DNA of 64,000 bases from the NCBI GenBank assembly GCA_030536855.1, contig JAUNPK010000001.1, positions 4,965-68,964 on the forward strand. Reading direction: 5' to 3'. Positions 8,336 through 58,061 of this stretch are shown here, in pieces. The stretch is from Eubacteriales bacterium. GTDB lineage: Bacteria; Bacillota; Clostridia; Lachnospirales; Lachnospiraceae. Both the position numbers and the translations under genes were made by a program. Within the stretch, counting starts at the first letter, position 1. Each line of letters begins with the position of its first letter. The notes under the pieces are model-generated. The model searched no databases. It had not been told where the DNA came from and saw only the letters and a program-made list of their open reading frames with translations.

Positions 8336-8349
8336 ATTAATCCTCCATT

Positions 8350-8419
8350 CCGCAGGCACTTTAGTGCCGAAGGAAACGCGAGCCAAATATCAGATTTGAC
8401 TCTGCAATAAATGCTATTT
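8350..8419. repeat. Truncated copy of the multi-hairpin dispersed element (66/70 identical to 29436-29505)
   Basis: Direct alignment with the copy upstream of truA; abuts the SD of the dus gene. Confidence 0.85.
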
Positions 8420-18208: not shown

Positions 18209-18570
18209 CTAAGCTATTCTCTCTTTCACATTAGGTAATTCATACAACGTATCCGGATCAATATCCAAACAGGTCGTATTATCTCTATTTTTACAAATAT
18301 CCCATGCCAGAGTATCATTCAGTACCGTACAGGTATCTATAAAAACATTTATATCTTTTAAGGTTTGAAACGCTTCTTTCTCTAACATTGGGGTCATATC
18401 ATAGCATACAATTTTTCCATCTTTAGAGAGTTCCCAATTCTGCATCAATTCATCCTGATGCAAAACACACCACGCCAAAATCAATTTCAATTGCCTTGAG
18501 GGTAAAGCACCTTTTATCACTCTTGCTCCATCTATTTCAATTAATGCCTTATTTCCATATATCCTTGACA
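18209..18570 (-). pseudogene. Fused DUF4160/DUF2442-like remnant (putative type II TA pair)
   Basis: YGNKALIEID...GALPSRQLKLILAWCVLHQDEL..NWEL joined in frame at KDGK to IVCYDMTP...LAWDI....D...LDIDPDTLY. Confidence 0.65.
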
Positions 18571-18829
18571 GTGTAAGCATACCACAAATATCACTGAAAA
18601 AAACCCACAAACTTGATGTTTGTGGGTTTCCATATAATAAAAATACTCTTTTTCTTATCTCTTTGTTAACGTTTTGAGAGCGAGAAAAGCCCTGAAACAA
18701 GGGATTTGTTGGTAGCAGTGTTGCATATGTGTTTTATGTTGAGAACTGCCCACAACTTCCTTTAGCTTCCATATATTTCAAATCTATTTGTCAATTTCAC
18801 TTTTAATTGTTTCCTTCAAATTATTTTTA

Positions 18830-18858
18830 TTGCATACTAACCATTTTACTGTTATTAT
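18830..18858 (+). promoter_or_regulatory. Sigma-A promoter of the putative type I toxin, copy 1
   Basis: TTGCAT-17-TATTAT with extended TG; predicted start near 18865. Confidence 0.7.
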
Positions 18859-18969
18859 TAATTTGGTGCTACCCTATTCGGTAGGCGGTTAGTTCTTCAG
18901 CATAGGGACTGTGACCCTCTGATTACATAGAAATCATCTTGTATGAAATCTTTCAAAGGAGGGATGCCA

Positions 18970-19101
18970 ATGTTGACTCTTGAAAGTCTCATTGCAGTTT
19001 TAAGTTTTGGCTTAACCTGCTTTGGACTTGGATATACACTCGGTAATAAATCACGAAAAAATAATCGCCACCGGTCTGGTAAACTGAGGCGATTATTTTA
19101 A
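18970..19101 (+). CDS. 43-aa hydrophobic peptide, putative type I toxin, copy 1 (absent from ORF track)
   Basis: MLTLESLIAVLSFGLTCFGLGYTLGNKSRKNNRHRSGKLRRLF*; SD AAGGAGGG at 18956-18963; one TM helix plus basic tail. Confidence 0.75.
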   Translation: MLTLESLIAVLSFGLTCFGLGYTLGNKSRKNNRHRSGKLRRLF

Positions 19102-19146
19102 TCAATTCATAAACTGGACTAACCGTCTATCGGTAGCACCTTTTAT
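19056..19146 (-). ncRNA. Putative antisense antitoxin RNA, copy 1 (about 90 nt)
   Basis: Convergent promoter TTGACA(19181-19176)-17-TATTAT(19158-19153); 12-bp IR 19058-19069/19088-19099 followed by a T-run on the minus strand. Confidence 0.6.
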
Positions 19147-19196
19147 GAGATAATAATAACATCATTAACAAAACATGTCAAAAGAATTTTCATACA

Positions 19197-22100
19197 TTAT
19201 TTAAGTTTTTTTCTTTTGTCATTCAATTCTGCCAATGCTACAATTGACAAAAGGAAAAGTGCTGTCCAAAGTGTTGGATTGCATTCATCACCTGTTTCCG
19301 GTTTATTCTTCTTTGTTTCAGTCTCTGTTTCCGATTTAGGTTTCCTTGCTTCAGCCTCTGCCCCCTGATCATTATCGGTCTGGGGTTCGTTTTCGGCAGA
19401 AGCGGATTTCTGAAACCGAGCATAATAAGTAGCCTCCCCTGTGGTGGTGTAGCTGATAGTATTTCCATTGTTGATCAAAATATCTTCATCAACCTTTTTA
19501 CCTTCTGCATCATACCAGCCCACAAATTCGTAACCCTCTTTTGCCGTTGCGGTGGAACTGGCTGTTGCTCCCACTACATCCGTATGAGTATAGCAGTCAA
19601 GAGTTGCTATACTGTCATCCGTGGTAACCTTCCAGTTATCTCCATCCTTTACTTGACGGATGTAGGTCTGGGTCACGGTTTCGGCAGATACGACTTTCTT
19701 AAACCGGGCATAATATGTAGCATTCCCGGTTGTGGTATAACTCAGGGTTGTTCCTTTGTTGCTTAACTTATCACTCGCAACCAGATTCCCTTCTGCATCA
19801 TACCAGCCCACGAATTCATAACCTTCTTTCGCTGTTGCAGTGGAACTGGCTGTTGCTCCCACTACATCCGTATGCGTATAATAGTCAAGGGTTGCTATTG
19901 TGTCATCCATGGTATTTCCCCAGATATTTCCATCTTTAATTTGGCGAATATAGGTCTGTGTCACCGTCTCGGCTGCTTCAATTCTCTGAAACAATGCATA
20001 ATAGATAGCATTTTCTGTGGTGGTGTAACTCAGGGTTTTCCCATTGTTGCTTAACTTATCACTCGCAACCAGATTCCCTTCTGCATCATACCAGCCCACA
20101 AATTCGTAACCCTCTTTTGCCGTTGCGGTGGAACTGGCTGTTGCTCCCACTACATCCGTATGAGTATAGCAGTCAAGAGTTGCTATACTGTCATCCGTGG
20201 TAACCTTCCAGTTATCTCCATCCTTCAACTGACGGACAAAGGTCTGTGTCACCTTTTTTTCAAATCTTGCGATATATGTTGCGCTCACAGTTGCTGTGTA
20301 GCTTAGGATGTTACTGGTTGCCCCCAGCATGGATTCTGCCACTGCATTTCCACTTTCGTCATACCAGCCCACAAACTCATAGCCTGTTCCTGCCGTCGCT
20401 GTGGAACCGGCTGTGCTTCCATACTCAACTATTAAGCTTTCAGGTGCGACAGTTCCGACGTTGGTATCGCTGGTAGCTTCCCATGTTTCCCCATTCTTTA
20501 CCTGTCTCTTATAAGTCTGGGTTACCTTGACTTTCTGGAATCGTGCGATATATGTAGCATTTGCAGTTGCTGTATAACTCAGGGTGGTTTCTGTTGTTGT
20601 TGCTGTTTCTGCTACTGCTTCTGTTTCACCGGTTGTTTCCACTTTATACCAGCCCACAAACTTATAGCCTGTTCCTGCTGTCGCTGTGGAAGTAGCAGTT
20701 GCTCCCACTACATCCGTATGGGTATAATTGGTCAGCATTCCTACTTTATTATCTGTGGTTTTTATCCATGTACTTCCCTCTAATATCTGACGGTCAAAGG
20801 TCTGGGTTACTGTTTTTTCAAATCTTGCAATATAAGTGGCACTTCCGGTTGTTGTATAACTGATGGTTTTTCCATCACTACTTAATCCTGTTGTCACCTT
20901 ATTTTCTGTGGAATCATACCAACCAACGAATTTATAGCCTTCTCCTGCTGTCGCAGTAACACTAATGTCCTTTCCTGCTACATCAACATAAGAATAACGG
21001 TCCAGGTTTCCTGCGTCATCATTATTTTCGCCCTGAATCCCTTTCCAGTTATCCCCATCCTTTACCTGGCGCTTATAGGTCTGGGTTACTGTTCCAGAAA
21101 ATCTTGCATAGTAAGTGCCAACATTTTCTTGCATTTCGGTAAAACTGTAGGTTGCATGCGTCGTAATCAAATTTGCATCACTGCCGGTACCATCATACCA
21201 GCCCTCAAATACATAACCCTCTTTTGCCGTTGCCTTGGCAGTTACAATTTCATCCGTTTCGGCAAAATAAGCTTTTCCACCGTTTGCATTATATGCAGCC
21301 ACATAATTGGCATCCGTATTTGGTACACTGGTAATCTCAACCGTTCCACCTGTATCAGAATTGGTATATCCTTCACCACTATTTATTTGCGGAAGAAATG
21401 CCTGCCGCCACCGCCACTGGGCAACCATAGTAAGACCTTTGTGGATATTGGCATAACTAAGTGTTGCACTCGAATCATTTGTGGTCCATTTTGTATATGT
21501 TGATCTATCAGTCTCCTGCTTTAGGTCAGGCGCAGCAATACTCTTATTCCATATTTGAAAATACTGTTCCTTCTTCGTACTTTCTCCACTAAAATCACAA
21601 GCAATGGTATGCTCTGCCGGAAGCAGTAATGAACCTAGTTTATCAGCATTTACCTTAACCGTACCCTGCGGTATATCACTCACTGTATCACCGGTCAATA
21701 ACCATCCCATAAATTTCCAGCCATCTTTACCTTCTGCTGCATGGGATACATAGGGAGAAATATATGTAAATGTATTTCCCTCACCCGTTTGAGGAACCGG
21801 CTTGAAGCTGTATACATTACAAGCTTCTTCCGTATTATAAGTCCTTTCAACAGTATAGACACTTCCCCCATTCGGGTCATAAGTCACTGTAGGACTCTTG
21901 ATAAAGACAAAATGCAAATCTGTTGCCGTAGTGATATTATCCAGATAATAGGTATAAATGATATCTCCGCCATCGTTAGTATATTTTATCCATTTATTCT
22001 TCTTTTCTTCATTTGTCAAATTATCCTGATAATCAATCTCATTTCCATCTTTTTTCAAAAATGTAGTTACCAAATTTCCCGATGTATCCTGTACCGTATA

Positions 22101-26221: not shown

Positions 26222-26682
26222 AGGTTTTTTCCTCTTCTGTAAAAGGTGGATTTGGATTTATCTTGTTTCCATGATACCACTCCTTTATCGTCTCATTTTA
26301 TGATATCATTTATTGTATCATTTAATAACTCATTTTATTCGTTCGTCTATGATTTTCCCACGTTATCTGCGAACACAAGAAGAACCTCGATTCCGCTTCG
26401 CTTCATCTCGGTCATTCTTGCGTTCCTATGTATTGCATATGTGTTTTATGTTGAGAACTGCCCACAACTTCCTTTAGCTTCCGTATATTTCAAATCCCAT
26501 TTGTCAATTTCACTTTTAATTGTTTTCTTCAAATTATTTTTATTGCATACTAACCATTTTACTGTTATCATTAATTTGGTACTACACTATTCGGTAAGCG
26601 GTTAGTCCTTCAGCAGAGGGACTGTGACCCTCTGATTACATAGAAATCATCTTGTATGAAATCTTTCAAAGGAGGGATGCCA

Positions 26683-26814
26683 ATGTTGACTCTTGAAAGT
26701 CTCATTGCAGTTTTAAGTTTTGGCTTAACCTGCTTTGGACTTGGATATACACTCGGTAATAAATCACGAAAAAATAATCGCCACCGGTCTGGTAAACTGA
26801 GGCGATTATTTTAA
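26683..26814 (+). CDS. 43-aa hydrophobic peptide, putative type I toxin, copy 2 (identical CDS)
   Basis: Same sequence and SD as 18970-19101; promoter TTGCAT(26543)-17-TATCAT(26566). Confidence 0.75.
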   Translation: MLTLESLIAVLSFGLTCFGLGYTLGNKSRKNNRHRSGKLRRLF

Positions 26815-26859
26815 TCAATTCATAAACTGGACTAACCGTCTATCGGTAGCACCTTTTAT
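26769..26859 (-). ncRNA. Putative antisense antitoxin RNA, copy 2
   Basis: TTGACA(26894-26889)-17-TACTAT(26871-26866); same terminator hairpin as copy 1. Confidence 0.6.
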
Positions 26860-27062
26860 GAGATAATAGTAATATCATTAACAAAACATGTCAAAAGAAT
26901 TTTCATACATCGTTATTAAAATATCCGGTTTCTTCCCATACTGGAGCTATGTCAAGACTTTGGACATTGAAAATCAACAACATTTCCATCCTCATAATAT
27001 TCAATTCCTCTATCTAAAATGTGCTGTCTAAATAATGTATACTAGTTCATATTGTATCATAC

Positions 27063-29422: not shown

Positions 29423-29435
29423 ACTATTCCCCACT

Positions 29436-29564
29436 CCGCAGGCACTTTAGTGCCAAAGGAATCGCGAGCCAAATATCAGATTTGGCTCTGCGATAAATGC
29501 TATTTGTGGTGCCTGCGGCACAAATAGCCGTATGAAAAATCAGCGCATCAGCGTGATTTTTCAC
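29436..29564. mobile_element. 129-bp multi-hairpin insertion with 13-bp target duplication that includes the truA SD
   Basis: ACTATTCCCCACT at 29423-29435 and 29565-29577; four internal hairpins; related copies at 8350 and 39869. Confidence 0.72.
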
Positions 29565-49002: not shown

Positions 49003-49249
49003 AAAAAAAGTCGCCTCCTTCGCACTTTATAAATGTAAGTACGACAAGCGGTGACTGTACACACTCCCACGCGTATCGAAAGTTTTCACTCGACAAAACA
49101 ACGCGCGTCATTTCTGCCTGTGCAGATGATATAGGTACAGTGACTTGTCGCCAGATTATTCGCCGGTTACCCGGCCTTGACATTCGCTCCACGGAAAAAC
49201 CTGCATATTAGCAGCAACCTCACGCTTCTACGCTATCAATGTCACAGCA
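49003..49249 (-). ncRNA. Structured S10-operon leader (Clostridia-type)
   Basis: About 245-nt 5' UTR with GAGGTTGC, CCGTGG and CCGGGTAACCGG segments and GACAAG/CTTGTC pairing; not model-tested. Confidence 0.6.
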
Positions 49250-57917: not shown

Positions 57918-58061
57918 AAATGCTTCGCATTACTTTCGTACAGTGCGAGCCTGACTCCGTCAGTCTCTACGCGCTATCGCACTCTATGAGAATAAATATA
58001 AAAGACCTCAGTTACGAGCAAGCTCGCACTGAGGTCTTTTATATTTATTCTCGCACTGTAC
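57918..58061. repeat. Nested palindromic element directly 3' of tuf
   Basis: 25-bp perfect IR 57988-58012/58028-58052; 12-bp IR 57938-57949/58050-58061; small hairpins. Confidence 0.8.

What the first reader, a model, noticed from the sequence alone, without database searches (positions are those of the whole stretch)
18830..19181. Unannotated type I toxin-antitoxin locus with complete regulatory architecture (also at 26543-26894)
Seen: extended sigma-A promoter; predicted mRNA 5' end GGTGCTACC (18865) complementary to GGTAGCACC (19132-19140), and CGGTTAGT (18886) to ACTAACCG (19118); anti-SD candidate CCCTCT (18915); strong SD; 43-aa TM peptide with basic tail; convergent TTGACA-17-TATTAT promoter and 12-bp hairpin defining a 90-nt antisense RNA over the 3' end. 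Established: this layout matches Firmicute type I systems such as txpA/RatA and the C. difficile loci. The peptide family is not one I can name. The ORF reads through the hairpin, so the basic tail could be a frameshift extension.
Basis: partly seen in the sequence, partly recalled or inferred. Interest (0 to 1): 0.65.

Follow-up and report, generated by a model that had tools for sequence, protein, structure and literature searches.

The report
Unnamed Lachnospiraceae toxin–antisense RNA cassette
Both flagged stretches are intact copies of a widespread but unnamed gene cassette of gut Lachnospiraceae, built like a type I toxin-antitoxin pair: a tiny membrane peptide on an mRNA whose two ends pair, plus a facing antisense RNA; here the peptide carries a frameshift-extended tail.

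Summary
Window 18830-19181 and 26543-26894 are two about 98% identical copies of a 350-bp cassette. Each has a sense promoter, a 105-nt leader, a strong ribosome-binding site (SD), a 43-codon membrane-peptide ORF, a bidirectional terminator and a convergent near-consensus promoter for an antisense RNA of about 95 nt.

The cassette is conserved in 99 of 301 genera of the family. Its antisense RNA model matches 50 of 400 genomes across the class, and 17 viral contigs encode relatives. The 25-bp pairing between the mRNA 5' end and its 3' UTR is backed by compensatory changes (10 of 26 pairs). The antisense RNA's 5' end is a near copy of the mRNA's 5' end, so both compete for the same 3' UTR site.

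Two corrections. The canonical peptide is 31-32 aa and stops in the terminator stem (84 of 92 modules); the window's 43-aa form comes from an A-run one base shorter. The "anti-SD" CCCUCU usually sits in a local hairpin and has no covariation with the SD.

No Pfam, NCBIfam, Rfam or literature match was found. It is a new variant of a known kind, of moderate interest.

The parts
18718..19198 (+). Repeat unit A (481 bp): the whole cassette plus about 112 bp upstream
   Evidence: Direct repeat families D4 and D8; alignment; own-genome search at 100% and 97% identity
18830..18858 (+). Sense promoter: TTGCAT, 17 nt, TGtTATTAT (extended -10); transcription start inferred at about 18865
   Evidence: Sequence; TTGnnn, 16-18 nt, TAnnnT at the same place in 97 of 112 modules; alignment
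18865..18895 (+). mRNA 5' arm: GGUGCUACC (18865-73), 6-nt bulge, GGUAGGCGGUUAGUUC (18880-95). It pairs with the 3' UTR and is a near copy of the antisense RNA's 5' end
   Evidence: MFE fold; covariation
18901..18921 (+). P2 hairpin CAUAGGG-ACUGUGA-CCCUCUG. It contains the candidate anti-SD CCCUCU (18915-20). The 5' arm carries a G-to-U change in copy A only
   Evidence: RNAalifold consensus; 98.1% of cells paired and 1 compensatory pair; predicted SD partner in the window copies
18958..18963 (+). Shine-Dalgarno GGAGGG, 6 nt before the ATG
   Evidence: Sequence; invariant in the alignment
18970..19101 (+). Peptide ORF, 43 aa plus stop: MLTLESLIAVLSFGLTCFGLGYTLGNKSRKNNRHRSGKLRRLF. One TM helix; a basic tail that is a frameshift read-through of the terminator
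   Evidence: ORF list; homologs; hydropathy and codon-position pattern; stop-codon statistics
19056..19064 (+). A6 run followed by TAA. This is the family's canonical stop, out of frame here. Relatives have A7 (31 aa) or A8 (39 aa)
   Evidence: a locus 99% identical over 5 kb (L053, Roseburia porci) has A8
19058..19099 (.). Bidirectional intrinsic terminator shared by both RNAs (about 12-bp stem)
   Evidence: Folds; 6 of 12 pairs with compensatory changes
19116..19140 (+). mRNA 3' UTR arm GGACUAACCGUCUAUCGGUAGCACC. It is the partner of the 5' arm and the target of the antisense RNA's 5' domain. It is nearly invariant across the family
19052..19146 (-). Predicted antisense (antitoxin) RNA, about 95 nt: a 5' hairpin followed by the terminator
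   Evidence: Fold; consensus structure; model R1 scores 87.8 bits on both copies
19153..19181 (-). Antisense promoter: TTGACA, 17 nt, TGnTATTAT
   Evidence: 11 of 12 consensus positions; conserved in 98 of 111 modules
26430..26910 (+). Repeat unit B. The same cassette lies at 26543-26894, with the ORF at 26683-26814. Its 5' arm is GGUACUACA (2 uncompensated mismatches), its -10 is TATCAT and its P2 is intact
   Evidence: the same 5' haplotype occurs in L053 and L148
26765..26859 (-). Predicted antisense RNA of copy B; its promoter is at 26866-26894 (-)
   Evidence: Offset of +7713 from copy A; R1 scores 87.8 bits

Best explanation
Each copy is a self-contained cassette with type I toxin-antitoxin architecture, from an unnamed family of gut Lachnospiraceae and their phages.

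**Transcripts.** A sigma-A promoter with an extended -10 gives an mRNA of about 280 nt for a single-pass membrane peptide. The canonical peptide is 31-32 aa; here it is 43 aa because an A-run is one base short. A convergent consensus promoter gives an antisense RNA of about 95 nt. This RNA is fully complementary to the mRNA 3' UTR and ends at the shared bidirectional terminator.

**Shown by covariation.** The first 31 nt of the mRNA pair with 25 nt of its own 3' UTR and close the molecule.

**Seen in the sequence.** That 3' UTR segment is also the target of the antisense RNA, whose 5' end is almost the same sequence as the mRNA's 5' end. Two invariant G.U wobbles make the intramolecular helix weaker than the perfect antisense duplex.

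**Inferred.**
- The closed mRNA is a stable form that hides the antitoxin target.
- The antisense RNA invades and displaces the 5' arm. This creates a long duplex for RNase III-type decay.
- In silico, the freed leader masks the ribosome-binding site more tightly.
- When the antisense RNA falls, the peptide is made, inserts in the membrane and arrests growth. That would stabilise the DNA that carries the cassette.
For: - **Architecture.** It is conserved end to end in 30 loci from other genera. DNA matches occur in 99 of 301 genera of the family. An exact 26-mer of the leader occurs in at least 118 genome records, nearly all Lachnospiraceae.
- **5'/3' helix.** 7 of 10 and 3 of 16 pairs carry compensatory changes, and 91.7% and 98.5% of cells are paired. 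For the whole four-helix structure, 93.5% of cells are paired against 33-51% when the partners are slid. 0 of 500 shuffles reach the observed values.
- **Cognate arms.** They pair better than shuffled arms: 9.17 against 8.67 of 10, with a maximum of 8.94 in 2000 shuffles.
- **Mismatch types.** They are strand-specific, as expected for RNA. G.U against A.C is 89:18 and 241:10.
- **Antisense promoter.** It is conserved in 98 of 111 modules.
- **Antisense RNA.** It has a conserved 5' hairpin plus terminator, with compensatory pairs.
- **ORF under protein-level constraint.** Variable columns by codon position are 17/6/28.
- **Peptide.** The N-terminal 19-residue windows have hydropathy of 1.3-1.8, followed by a basic tail.
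- **SD accessibility.** The predicted unpaired probability drops from 0.27 to 0.10 when the 3' region is blocked, over 79 transcripts.
- **Precedent.** In bsrG/SR4, antitoxin binding at the mRNA 3' end extends the helix that sequesters the SD (PMC3834814).
- **Mobile context.** Relatives occur on 17 IMG/VR contigs and in one phage record.
Against: - Both RNAs, and the read-through of the first terminator that the 5'/3' helix requires, are therefore inferred.
- Toxicity is untested. Fozo et al. 2010 found that a family member with the same look (YhzE-2) was not toxic (PMC2887945).
- No sequence match to any named type I toxin family or Rfam antitoxin.
- In the two window copies the SD is predicted closed in both states (0.13-0.20), so the switch model does not apply cleanly here.
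- Copy B has two uncompensated mismatches in the 5' arm.
- The frameshifted 43-aa tail may alter or abolish activity.
Confidence: 0.7

Rival explanations
1. It is a small membrane protein with a normal, non-toxic physiological role, for example a modulator of a transporter or sensor. Its expression is tuned by a cis-antisense RNA. It is not an addiction or toxin module.
For: The ORF is under protein-level constraint. The invariant residues (L15, F18, G21, Y22, G25) look more specific than a generic pore-forming helix. Fozo et al. found the type I-like YhzE-2 non-toxic. Both window copies are chromosomal and lie next to housekeeping genes.
Against: - Copy number is multiple and variable, including tandem arrays.
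- Relatives occur on viral contigs.
- At least three unrelated peptide classes are swapped onto the same RNA scaffold.
- Decayed remnants exist.
- The C-terminal tail length is free to vary.

All of these are typical of selfish toxin-antitoxin modules rather than dedicated physiological partners.
Confidence: 0.17
2. The cassette is mainly a mobile inverted-repeat element (MITE-like). The matching 5' and 3' arms would be terminal inverted repeats recognised at the DNA level, and the ORF and promoters would be incidental.
For: The arms form a 25-bp imperfect inverted repeat near the ends of the conserved unit. The cassette is multi-copy and patchily distributed. The two window copies flank a 7.7-kb insert that one related locus (L121) appears to lack.
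Against: - Arm mismatches are strongly biased to G.U on the sense strand (89:18 and 241:10). DNA-level recognition would not produce that bias.
- Both promoters lie outside the arms and are conserved.
- The ORF shows a coding substitution pattern.
- No transposase partner or target-site duplication was seen.
- The window duplication includes 112 bp outside the arms.
Confidence: 0.04
3. The leader is a sensor RNA, either riboswitch-like or protein-binding. It would control the peptide in response to a signal, with the antisense RNA secondary.
For: A 26-nt leader stretch is letter-identical in at least 118 genome records. It includes the P2 loop ACUGUGA and the segment AUUACAUAGAAA, which is single-stranded in the consensus fold. 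This is more conservation than base pairing needs. The P2 hairpin and the SD compete for the same CCCUCU.
Against: There is no Rfam match, even at E up to 10. The leader is short and has little structure beyond P2 and a small variable hairpin. No ligand pocket-like multi-helix junction is present. A sensor leader could coexist with the toxin-antitoxin reading rather than replace it.
Confidence: 0.09

Closest known systems
bsrG/SR4 and txpA/RatA of Bacillus subtilis (type I systems that overlap at the 3' ends)
   Same: Both have a small single-TM peptide and a convergent antisense RNA overlapping the mRNA 3' end. Both are associated with prophages or mobile elements. SR4 binding at the 3' end extends the helix that sequesters the SD from 4 to 8 bp (PMC3834814). 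That parallels the in-silico drop in SD accessibility found here.
   Different: There is no sequence relationship. Pfam Hol_Tox (PF16935) does not hit these loci or peptides, and there is no Rfam match. Here the two RNAs share one bidirectional terminator. The antisense target is the same segment that the mRNA's own 5' end pairs with.
hok/Sok (tac-fbi fold-back) and Helicobacter pylori aapA1/IsoA1
   Same: A long-distance pairing between the 5' and 3' ends closes the toxin mRNA. SD masking by internal anti-SD sequences is also present.
   Different: In those systems the antisense RNA binds the 5' region, and 3' trimming activates the mRNA. Here the antisense RNA binds the 3' partner of the fold-back itself and mimics the mRNA 5' end. 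The peptides have no Pfam match to HOK_GEF.
par (fst RNA I / RNA II) of Enterococcus faecalis pAD1
   Same: Transcription is convergent, with one shared bidirectional terminator. The toxin is about 30 aa, and the SD is sequestered in the leader.
   Different: In par the 5' repeats of the two RNAs are complementary to each other. Here the two 5' ends are the same sense and both complement the mRNA 3' UTR. There is no Fst match in Pfam or NCBIfam.
Clostridioides difficile type I systems (CD0956.2/RCd10 and others) and the 'TxpA-like' sequence reported in Clostridium bolteae
   Same: They are type I toxin-antitoxin systems of Clostridia with hydrophobic-plus-basic peptides on prophages. Fozo et al. 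2010 reported TxpA-like and Fst-like sequences in C. bolteae, which I take to be a Lachnospiraceae species (classification from my own knowledge; report as summarised in PMC6563280).
   Different: The review says no other Clostridia yielded homologs of known toxins. The C. bolteae sequences could not be retrieved because no supplement is held, so identity with this family is untested. The C. difficile toxins are about 50 aa and share no detectable similarity.

Membership tests
Type I toxin-antitoxin system (generic) | Small (<60 aa) hydrophobic peptide with one TM segment | tested here: met
   The peptide is 43 aa (canonical 31-32 aa). N-terminal hydropathy windows are 1.3-1.8, followed by a basic tail. 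Codon-position variability is 17/6/28.
Type I toxin-antitoxin system (generic) | Cis-encoded antisense RNA gene with its own promoter and terminator overlapping the toxin mRNA | tested here: met
   The promoter matches 11 of 12 consensus positions and is conserved in 98 of 111 modules. The structure is conserved. Model R1 scores 87.8 bits. Only the sequence signals were tested; the transcript itself was not observed.
Type I toxin-antitoxin system (generic) | Both RNAs are actually transcribed | not testable with these tools
Type I toxin-antitoxin system (generic) | The peptide is toxic on expression and is neutralised by the antisense RNA | not testable with these tools
   This needs a wet-lab experiment.
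TxpA/BsrG/BsrE, Pfam Hol_Tox (PF16935) | Match to the family HMM | tested here: not met
   The best own-genome hits score 15.1 bits or less, lie elsewhere and are below the cut-off. The window peptide and 8 family peptides gave no hit at E up to 10. NCBIfam gave none for the window peptide.
TxpA/BsrG class | The antitoxin overlaps the 3' end of the toxin mRNA | tested here: met
   The predicted antisense RNA (19146 to 19052) covers the last 47 nt of the ORF plus the 3' UTR.
Fst/Ldr (par) | Fst-type peptide, and 5' repeats that make the two RNAs complementary at their 5' ends | tested here: not met
   There is no Pfam or NCBIfam hit. The 5' ends of the two RNAs are the same sense, not complementary. 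The shared bidirectional terminator is present.
hok/Sok | Hok/Gef peptide; 5'-3' fold-back; antisense RNA against the 5' leader | tested here: not met
   The fold-back is present and covaries. However, there is no HOK_GEF hit, and the antisense RNA lies over the 3' end.
Any Rfam family (antitoxin sRNAs, leaders) | Covariance-model match | tested here: not met
   Nothing reached the gathering score in the window at this locus. At E up to 10 there were only chance snoRNA and miRNA hits.

The most novel reading that the evidence does not exclude
The cassette is a three-strand RNA competition device. The toxin mRNA carries at its 5' end a built-in, slightly weakened copy of its own antitoxin, kept weaker by two invariant G.U wobbles. 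That copy occupies the antitoxin's target in the 3' UTR. The real antitoxin acts by strand displacement, and the displaced 5' arm then shuts the ribosome-binding site.

On top of this, the A-run that doubles as the antisense terminator's U-tract varies in length (A6, A7 or A8) between near-identical strains. This toggles the peptide between 43-, 31- and 39-aa tails, a possible phase-variable toxin potency. The scaffold is modular and carries at least three unrelated peptide classes.
Probability: 0.3. Interest if true: 0.7.

Novelty: new variant of a known kind. Interest (0 to 1): 0.5.

Why it matters
Lachnospiraceae such as Roseburia and Blautia include well-known human gut commensals. According to the 2019 review, almost no type I toxin-antitoxin systems are known in Clostridia outside C. 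difficile.

A cassette present in about a third of Lachnospiraceae genera, invisible to gene callers and to Pfam, NCBIfam and Rfam, would fill that gap. It would add annotations to thousands of genomes and prophages.

It also offers a compact natural example of an mRNA whose 5' end mimics its own antisense regulator. That design is directly testable with compensatory mutants.

In this window the two copies also appear to have served as the homology for capturing a 7.7-kb adhesin and two-component-system cassette.

Tried and rejected
- **Database matches for the peptide.** Pfam, NCBIfam, Hol_Tox and PDB profile searches all came back empty.
- **Rfam.** Nothing relevant at the gathering threshold or at E up to 10.
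- **Literature.** The string 'SFGLTCF' occurs in no paper. Searches on type I toxin with Lachnospiraceae, Blautia or Clostridia found only C. difficile work and Fozo 2010. The Fozo supplement holding the C. bolteae sequences is not held.
- **Trans targets.** I searched the own genome for targets of the conserved 25-mer and found only the cognate loci plus chance matches of 15 nt or less.
- **SD:anti-SD covariation.** The pairing is always possible (99.8%) but invariant, so it is uninformative.
- **MITE reading.** Rejected on the G.U against A.C asymmetry and the coding signal.
- **LexA box.** A Cheo-type box sits in the promoter spacer of a sister subfamily (L020, L021, L029, L033) but is absent from the window copies (read by eye).
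- **Remembered sequences.** I did not compare against TxpA, BsrG or BsrE sequences recalled from memory, because that would be a lead and not a test.

Full report
**1. What is in the window**

On the plus strand:
- TTGCAT (18830-35), 17 nt, then TGtTATTAT (18850-58).
- A leader starting at about 18865.
- SD GGAGGG (18958-63), 6 nt before the ATG at 18970.
- A 43-codon ORF, MLTLESLIAVLSFGLTCFGLGYTLGNKSRKNNRHRSGKLRRLF, with its stop at 19099-19101.
- A 12-bp hairpin at about 19058-19099.
- A 3' UTR segment GGACTAACCGTCTATCGGTAGCACC (19116-40).

On the minus strand, TTGACA, 17 nt, TGnTATTAT (19181-19153) matches 11 of 12 consensus positions. It would start an RNA near 19146 that ends at the same hairpin, about 95 nt long.

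The duplicated unit is larger than stated. It spans 18718-19198 and 26430-26910 at 97% identity. There are no differences from the ORF through the 3' UTR; the differences fall in the leader, both promoter regions and the upstream 112 bp.

The own genome also holds a diverged third full copy (C40, with a 31-aa peptide). It holds a 3'-half remnant as well (C22:48757-48840).

**2. Folding**

The 283-nt predicted mRNA folds with its first 31 nt paired to 19116-19140. This is a 25-bp helix with a 6-nt bulge. The energy is -96.3 kcal/mol, the z-score is -6.7, and 0 of 200 shuffles fold as well. Cut at the first terminator, the z-score is only -2.4. In both folds of copy A, CCCUCU pairs with the SD.

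**3. It is a family, not a private feature**

- DNA search found the cassette in 99 of 301 genera of the own family.
- An exact 26-mer of the leader occurs in at least 118 genome records: Blautia, Roseburia, Agathobacter, Lachnospira, Eisenbergiella, Eubacterium ramulus and others.
- One of these records, Roseburia porci, is 99% identical to the window over 5 kb. This places the window's organism.
- An alignment of 30 loci from other genera shows the whole architecture conserved. It runs from the sense -35 to the antisense -35, and the flanks are unrelated.
- A covariance model of the antisense RNA matches 50 of 400 genomes sampled across the class. These span many families, and some carry tandem arrays.
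- Seventeen IMG/VR viral contigs and one fecal phage record carry relatives.
- The same leader and 3' scaffold carries at least three unrelated peptide classes.

**4. The 5'/3' pairing is real RNA structure**

On 75 distinct transcripts I counted the named structure: helix 1, helix 2, P2 and the terminator. It forms standard pairs in 93.5% of cells, against 33-51% when the 3' partners are slid by 1-3 columns. 0 of 500 shuffles reach the observed value on any of the five measures.

| Helix | Pairs with changes on both sides | Cells paired |
|---|---|---|
| Helix 1 | 7 of 10 | 91.7% |
| Helix 2 | 3 of 16 | 98.5% |
| P2 | 1 of 7 | 98.1% |
| Terminator | 6 of 12 | 85.8% |

Examples of compensatory arm pairs are GUGUUGCC/GGCAACAC, GUACUGCC/GGCAGUAC, GAGCUACC/GGUAGCUC and CGGUUGGCCC/GGGCCAACCG.

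Cognate arms pair better than arms swapped between loci: 9.17 against 8.67 of 10, with a maximum of 8.94 in 2000 shuffles.

Mismatches are strand-specific. G.U against A.C is 89:18 in helix 1 and 241:10 in helix 2. This argues for pairing in the sense RNA rather than DNA-level inverted repeats.

Two positions of helix 2 are G.U in 75 of 75 and 74 of 75 sequences. In the antisense RNA the corresponding bases are A. The antisense:mRNA duplex is therefore perfect where the intramolecular helix wobbles.

**5. The antisense RNA mimics the mRNA 5' end**

The antisense RNA begins (AUAAAA)GGUGCUACCGAUAGACGGUUAGUCC. The mRNA begins GGUGCUACC-cuauuc-GGUAGGCGGUUAGUUC. Both are therefore complementary to the same 3' UTR segment. 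That segment is nearly invariant across the family.

No other site in the own genome matches this 25-mer beyond chance. I therefore see no evidence for trans targets.

**6. The anti-SD claim needs qualifying**

The RNAalifold consensus of 96 transcripts places CCCUCUG in a local hairpin, P2: CAGAGGG-ACUGUGA-CCCUCUG. P2 is 98.1% paired and has one compensatory pair.

Pairing of CCCUCU with the SD is always possible (99.8%) but never varies, so covariation says nothing either way. By eye, sub-branches that shorten P2 to GAGG/CCUC also have SD GGAGGA, and the C40 copy (CUCC) has GGAGAA. This is suggestive only.

Copy A carries a G-to-U change in the P2 5' arm (CAUAGGG). That change explains why its MFE uses the SD pairing.

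In partition-function folds of 79 transcripts, the mean SD unpaired probability falls from 0.27 to 0.10 when the antisense-covered region is blocked. The new SD partner is either UCCUUC of the released 5' arm or CCCUCU. For the two window copies the SD is closed in both states (0.13-0.20). This switch is a thermodynamic prediction, not a demonstration.

**7. The 43-aa tail is a frameshift extension**

In 84 of 92 modules the stop codon is the TAA or TAG inside the 5' arm of the terminator stem, giving 31-32 aa. The closest relative (G001, 91% identical) reads ...CAAAAAAAATAA, ending KK-stop.

The window has CGAAAAAATAA. This is one base shorter, so translation continues 37 nt through the hairpin and yields NNRHRSGKLRRLF. 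Tail charge rises from +4 to +8.

- Two loci 98-99% identical to the window (L053, Roseburia porci, and L148) have A8 and a 39-aa KKIIATGLVN form.
- A 96% identical module (L136) has A7 and 31 aa.
- All three frames recur in metagenomic proteins.

The tail is therefore either unconstrained or phase-variable. It does not define the family.

**8. Is it coding, and is it a toxin?**

Variable alignment columns fall 17/6/28 by codon position in the largest subgroup. L15, F18, G21, Y22 and G25 are invariant across 20 diverse members. Hydropathy supports one TM helix.

Toxicity is inferred from architecture only.

**9. Comparison with the known**

- No Pfam, NCBIfam, PDB-profile or Rfam match was found, and no source gives the protein a name.
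- The 2019 review of clostridial type I systems states that homology searches found none outside C. difficile. The exceptions are TxpA-like and Fst-like sequences in C. bolteae and an Fst-like sequence in C. asparagiforme (Fozo 2010). Those sequences could not be retrieved.
- The layout is closest to bsrG/SR4 and txpA/RatA, which overlap at the 3' ends. SR4 also tightens SD sequestration from a distance.
- The fold-back recalls hok and aapA1, and the shared terminator recalls par.
- The distinctive point is that the antitoxin's target is the fold-back partner itself.

**10. Earlier notes of this scan**

Notes independently describe the same unnamed cassette family in many genomes. I treated them as leads. 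My own tests agree on the family, on the shared core at the two 5' ends and on phage carriage.

**11. Verdict**

This is a real, intact, duplicated member of a large undescribed type I toxin-antitoxin-like family.

- Supported computationally: conserved architecture, covariation-backed 5'/3' closure and a coding signal.
- Inferred: the transcripts, toxicity, and the strand-displacement and SD-masking mechanism.

It is a new variant of a known kind. Interest is moderate, because the kind is well known and the family has by now been seen repeatedly in this scan.

Noticed in passing
window 18655-19198 and 26430-27051, against L121:5417-6465: One related genome record (L121) has a single cassette. 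Its left flank matches the window left of copy A (from 18655). Its right flank matches the window right of copy B (to 27051). It therefore looks like an empty site lacking the 7.7-kb adhesin, response-regulator and histidine-kinase segment. This fits capture of that segment by homologous recombination at the cassette, which would leave direct repeats.
   Followed up: partly
G000:C22:48757-48840 (own genome, outside the window): A decayed 3' half of a cassette lies directly after the stop of an OmpR-type response-regulator gene. It keeps the last toxin codons, the terminator and a degenerate antisense 5' domain. The leader and the start of the ORF are gone.
   Followed up: partly
L020, L021, L029, L033 (sense promoter spacer): A sister subfamily carries a Cheo/LexA-like box (for example CGAACATATGTTTG) between the -35 and the -10 of the toxin promoter. 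The window copies do not have it. This was read by eye; no formal motif scan was run.
   Followed up: partly
G359:C7:73490-77610 and G552 (other families of the class): There are tandem arrays of 6-9 matches to the antisense RNA model, spaced about 300 bp apart, in genomes of other clostridial families.
   Followed up: no
window 18209-18700 (-): A 163-aa ORF matches DUF4160 only over profile positions 24-65 (residues 49-90). Its N-terminus may be frameshifted or mis-started. It abuts the left end of repeat unit A.
   Followed up: no
window 57941-58058 (-) and 49145-49238 (-): The only gathering-score Rfam hits in the window are a Clostridiales-1 RNA (51.7 bits) and the S10-Clostridia ribosomal leader (74.7 bits).
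   Followed up: no
window 8340-8419 and 29426-29505: An 80-nt direct repeat at 91% identity, unrelated to the cassette.
   Followed up: no
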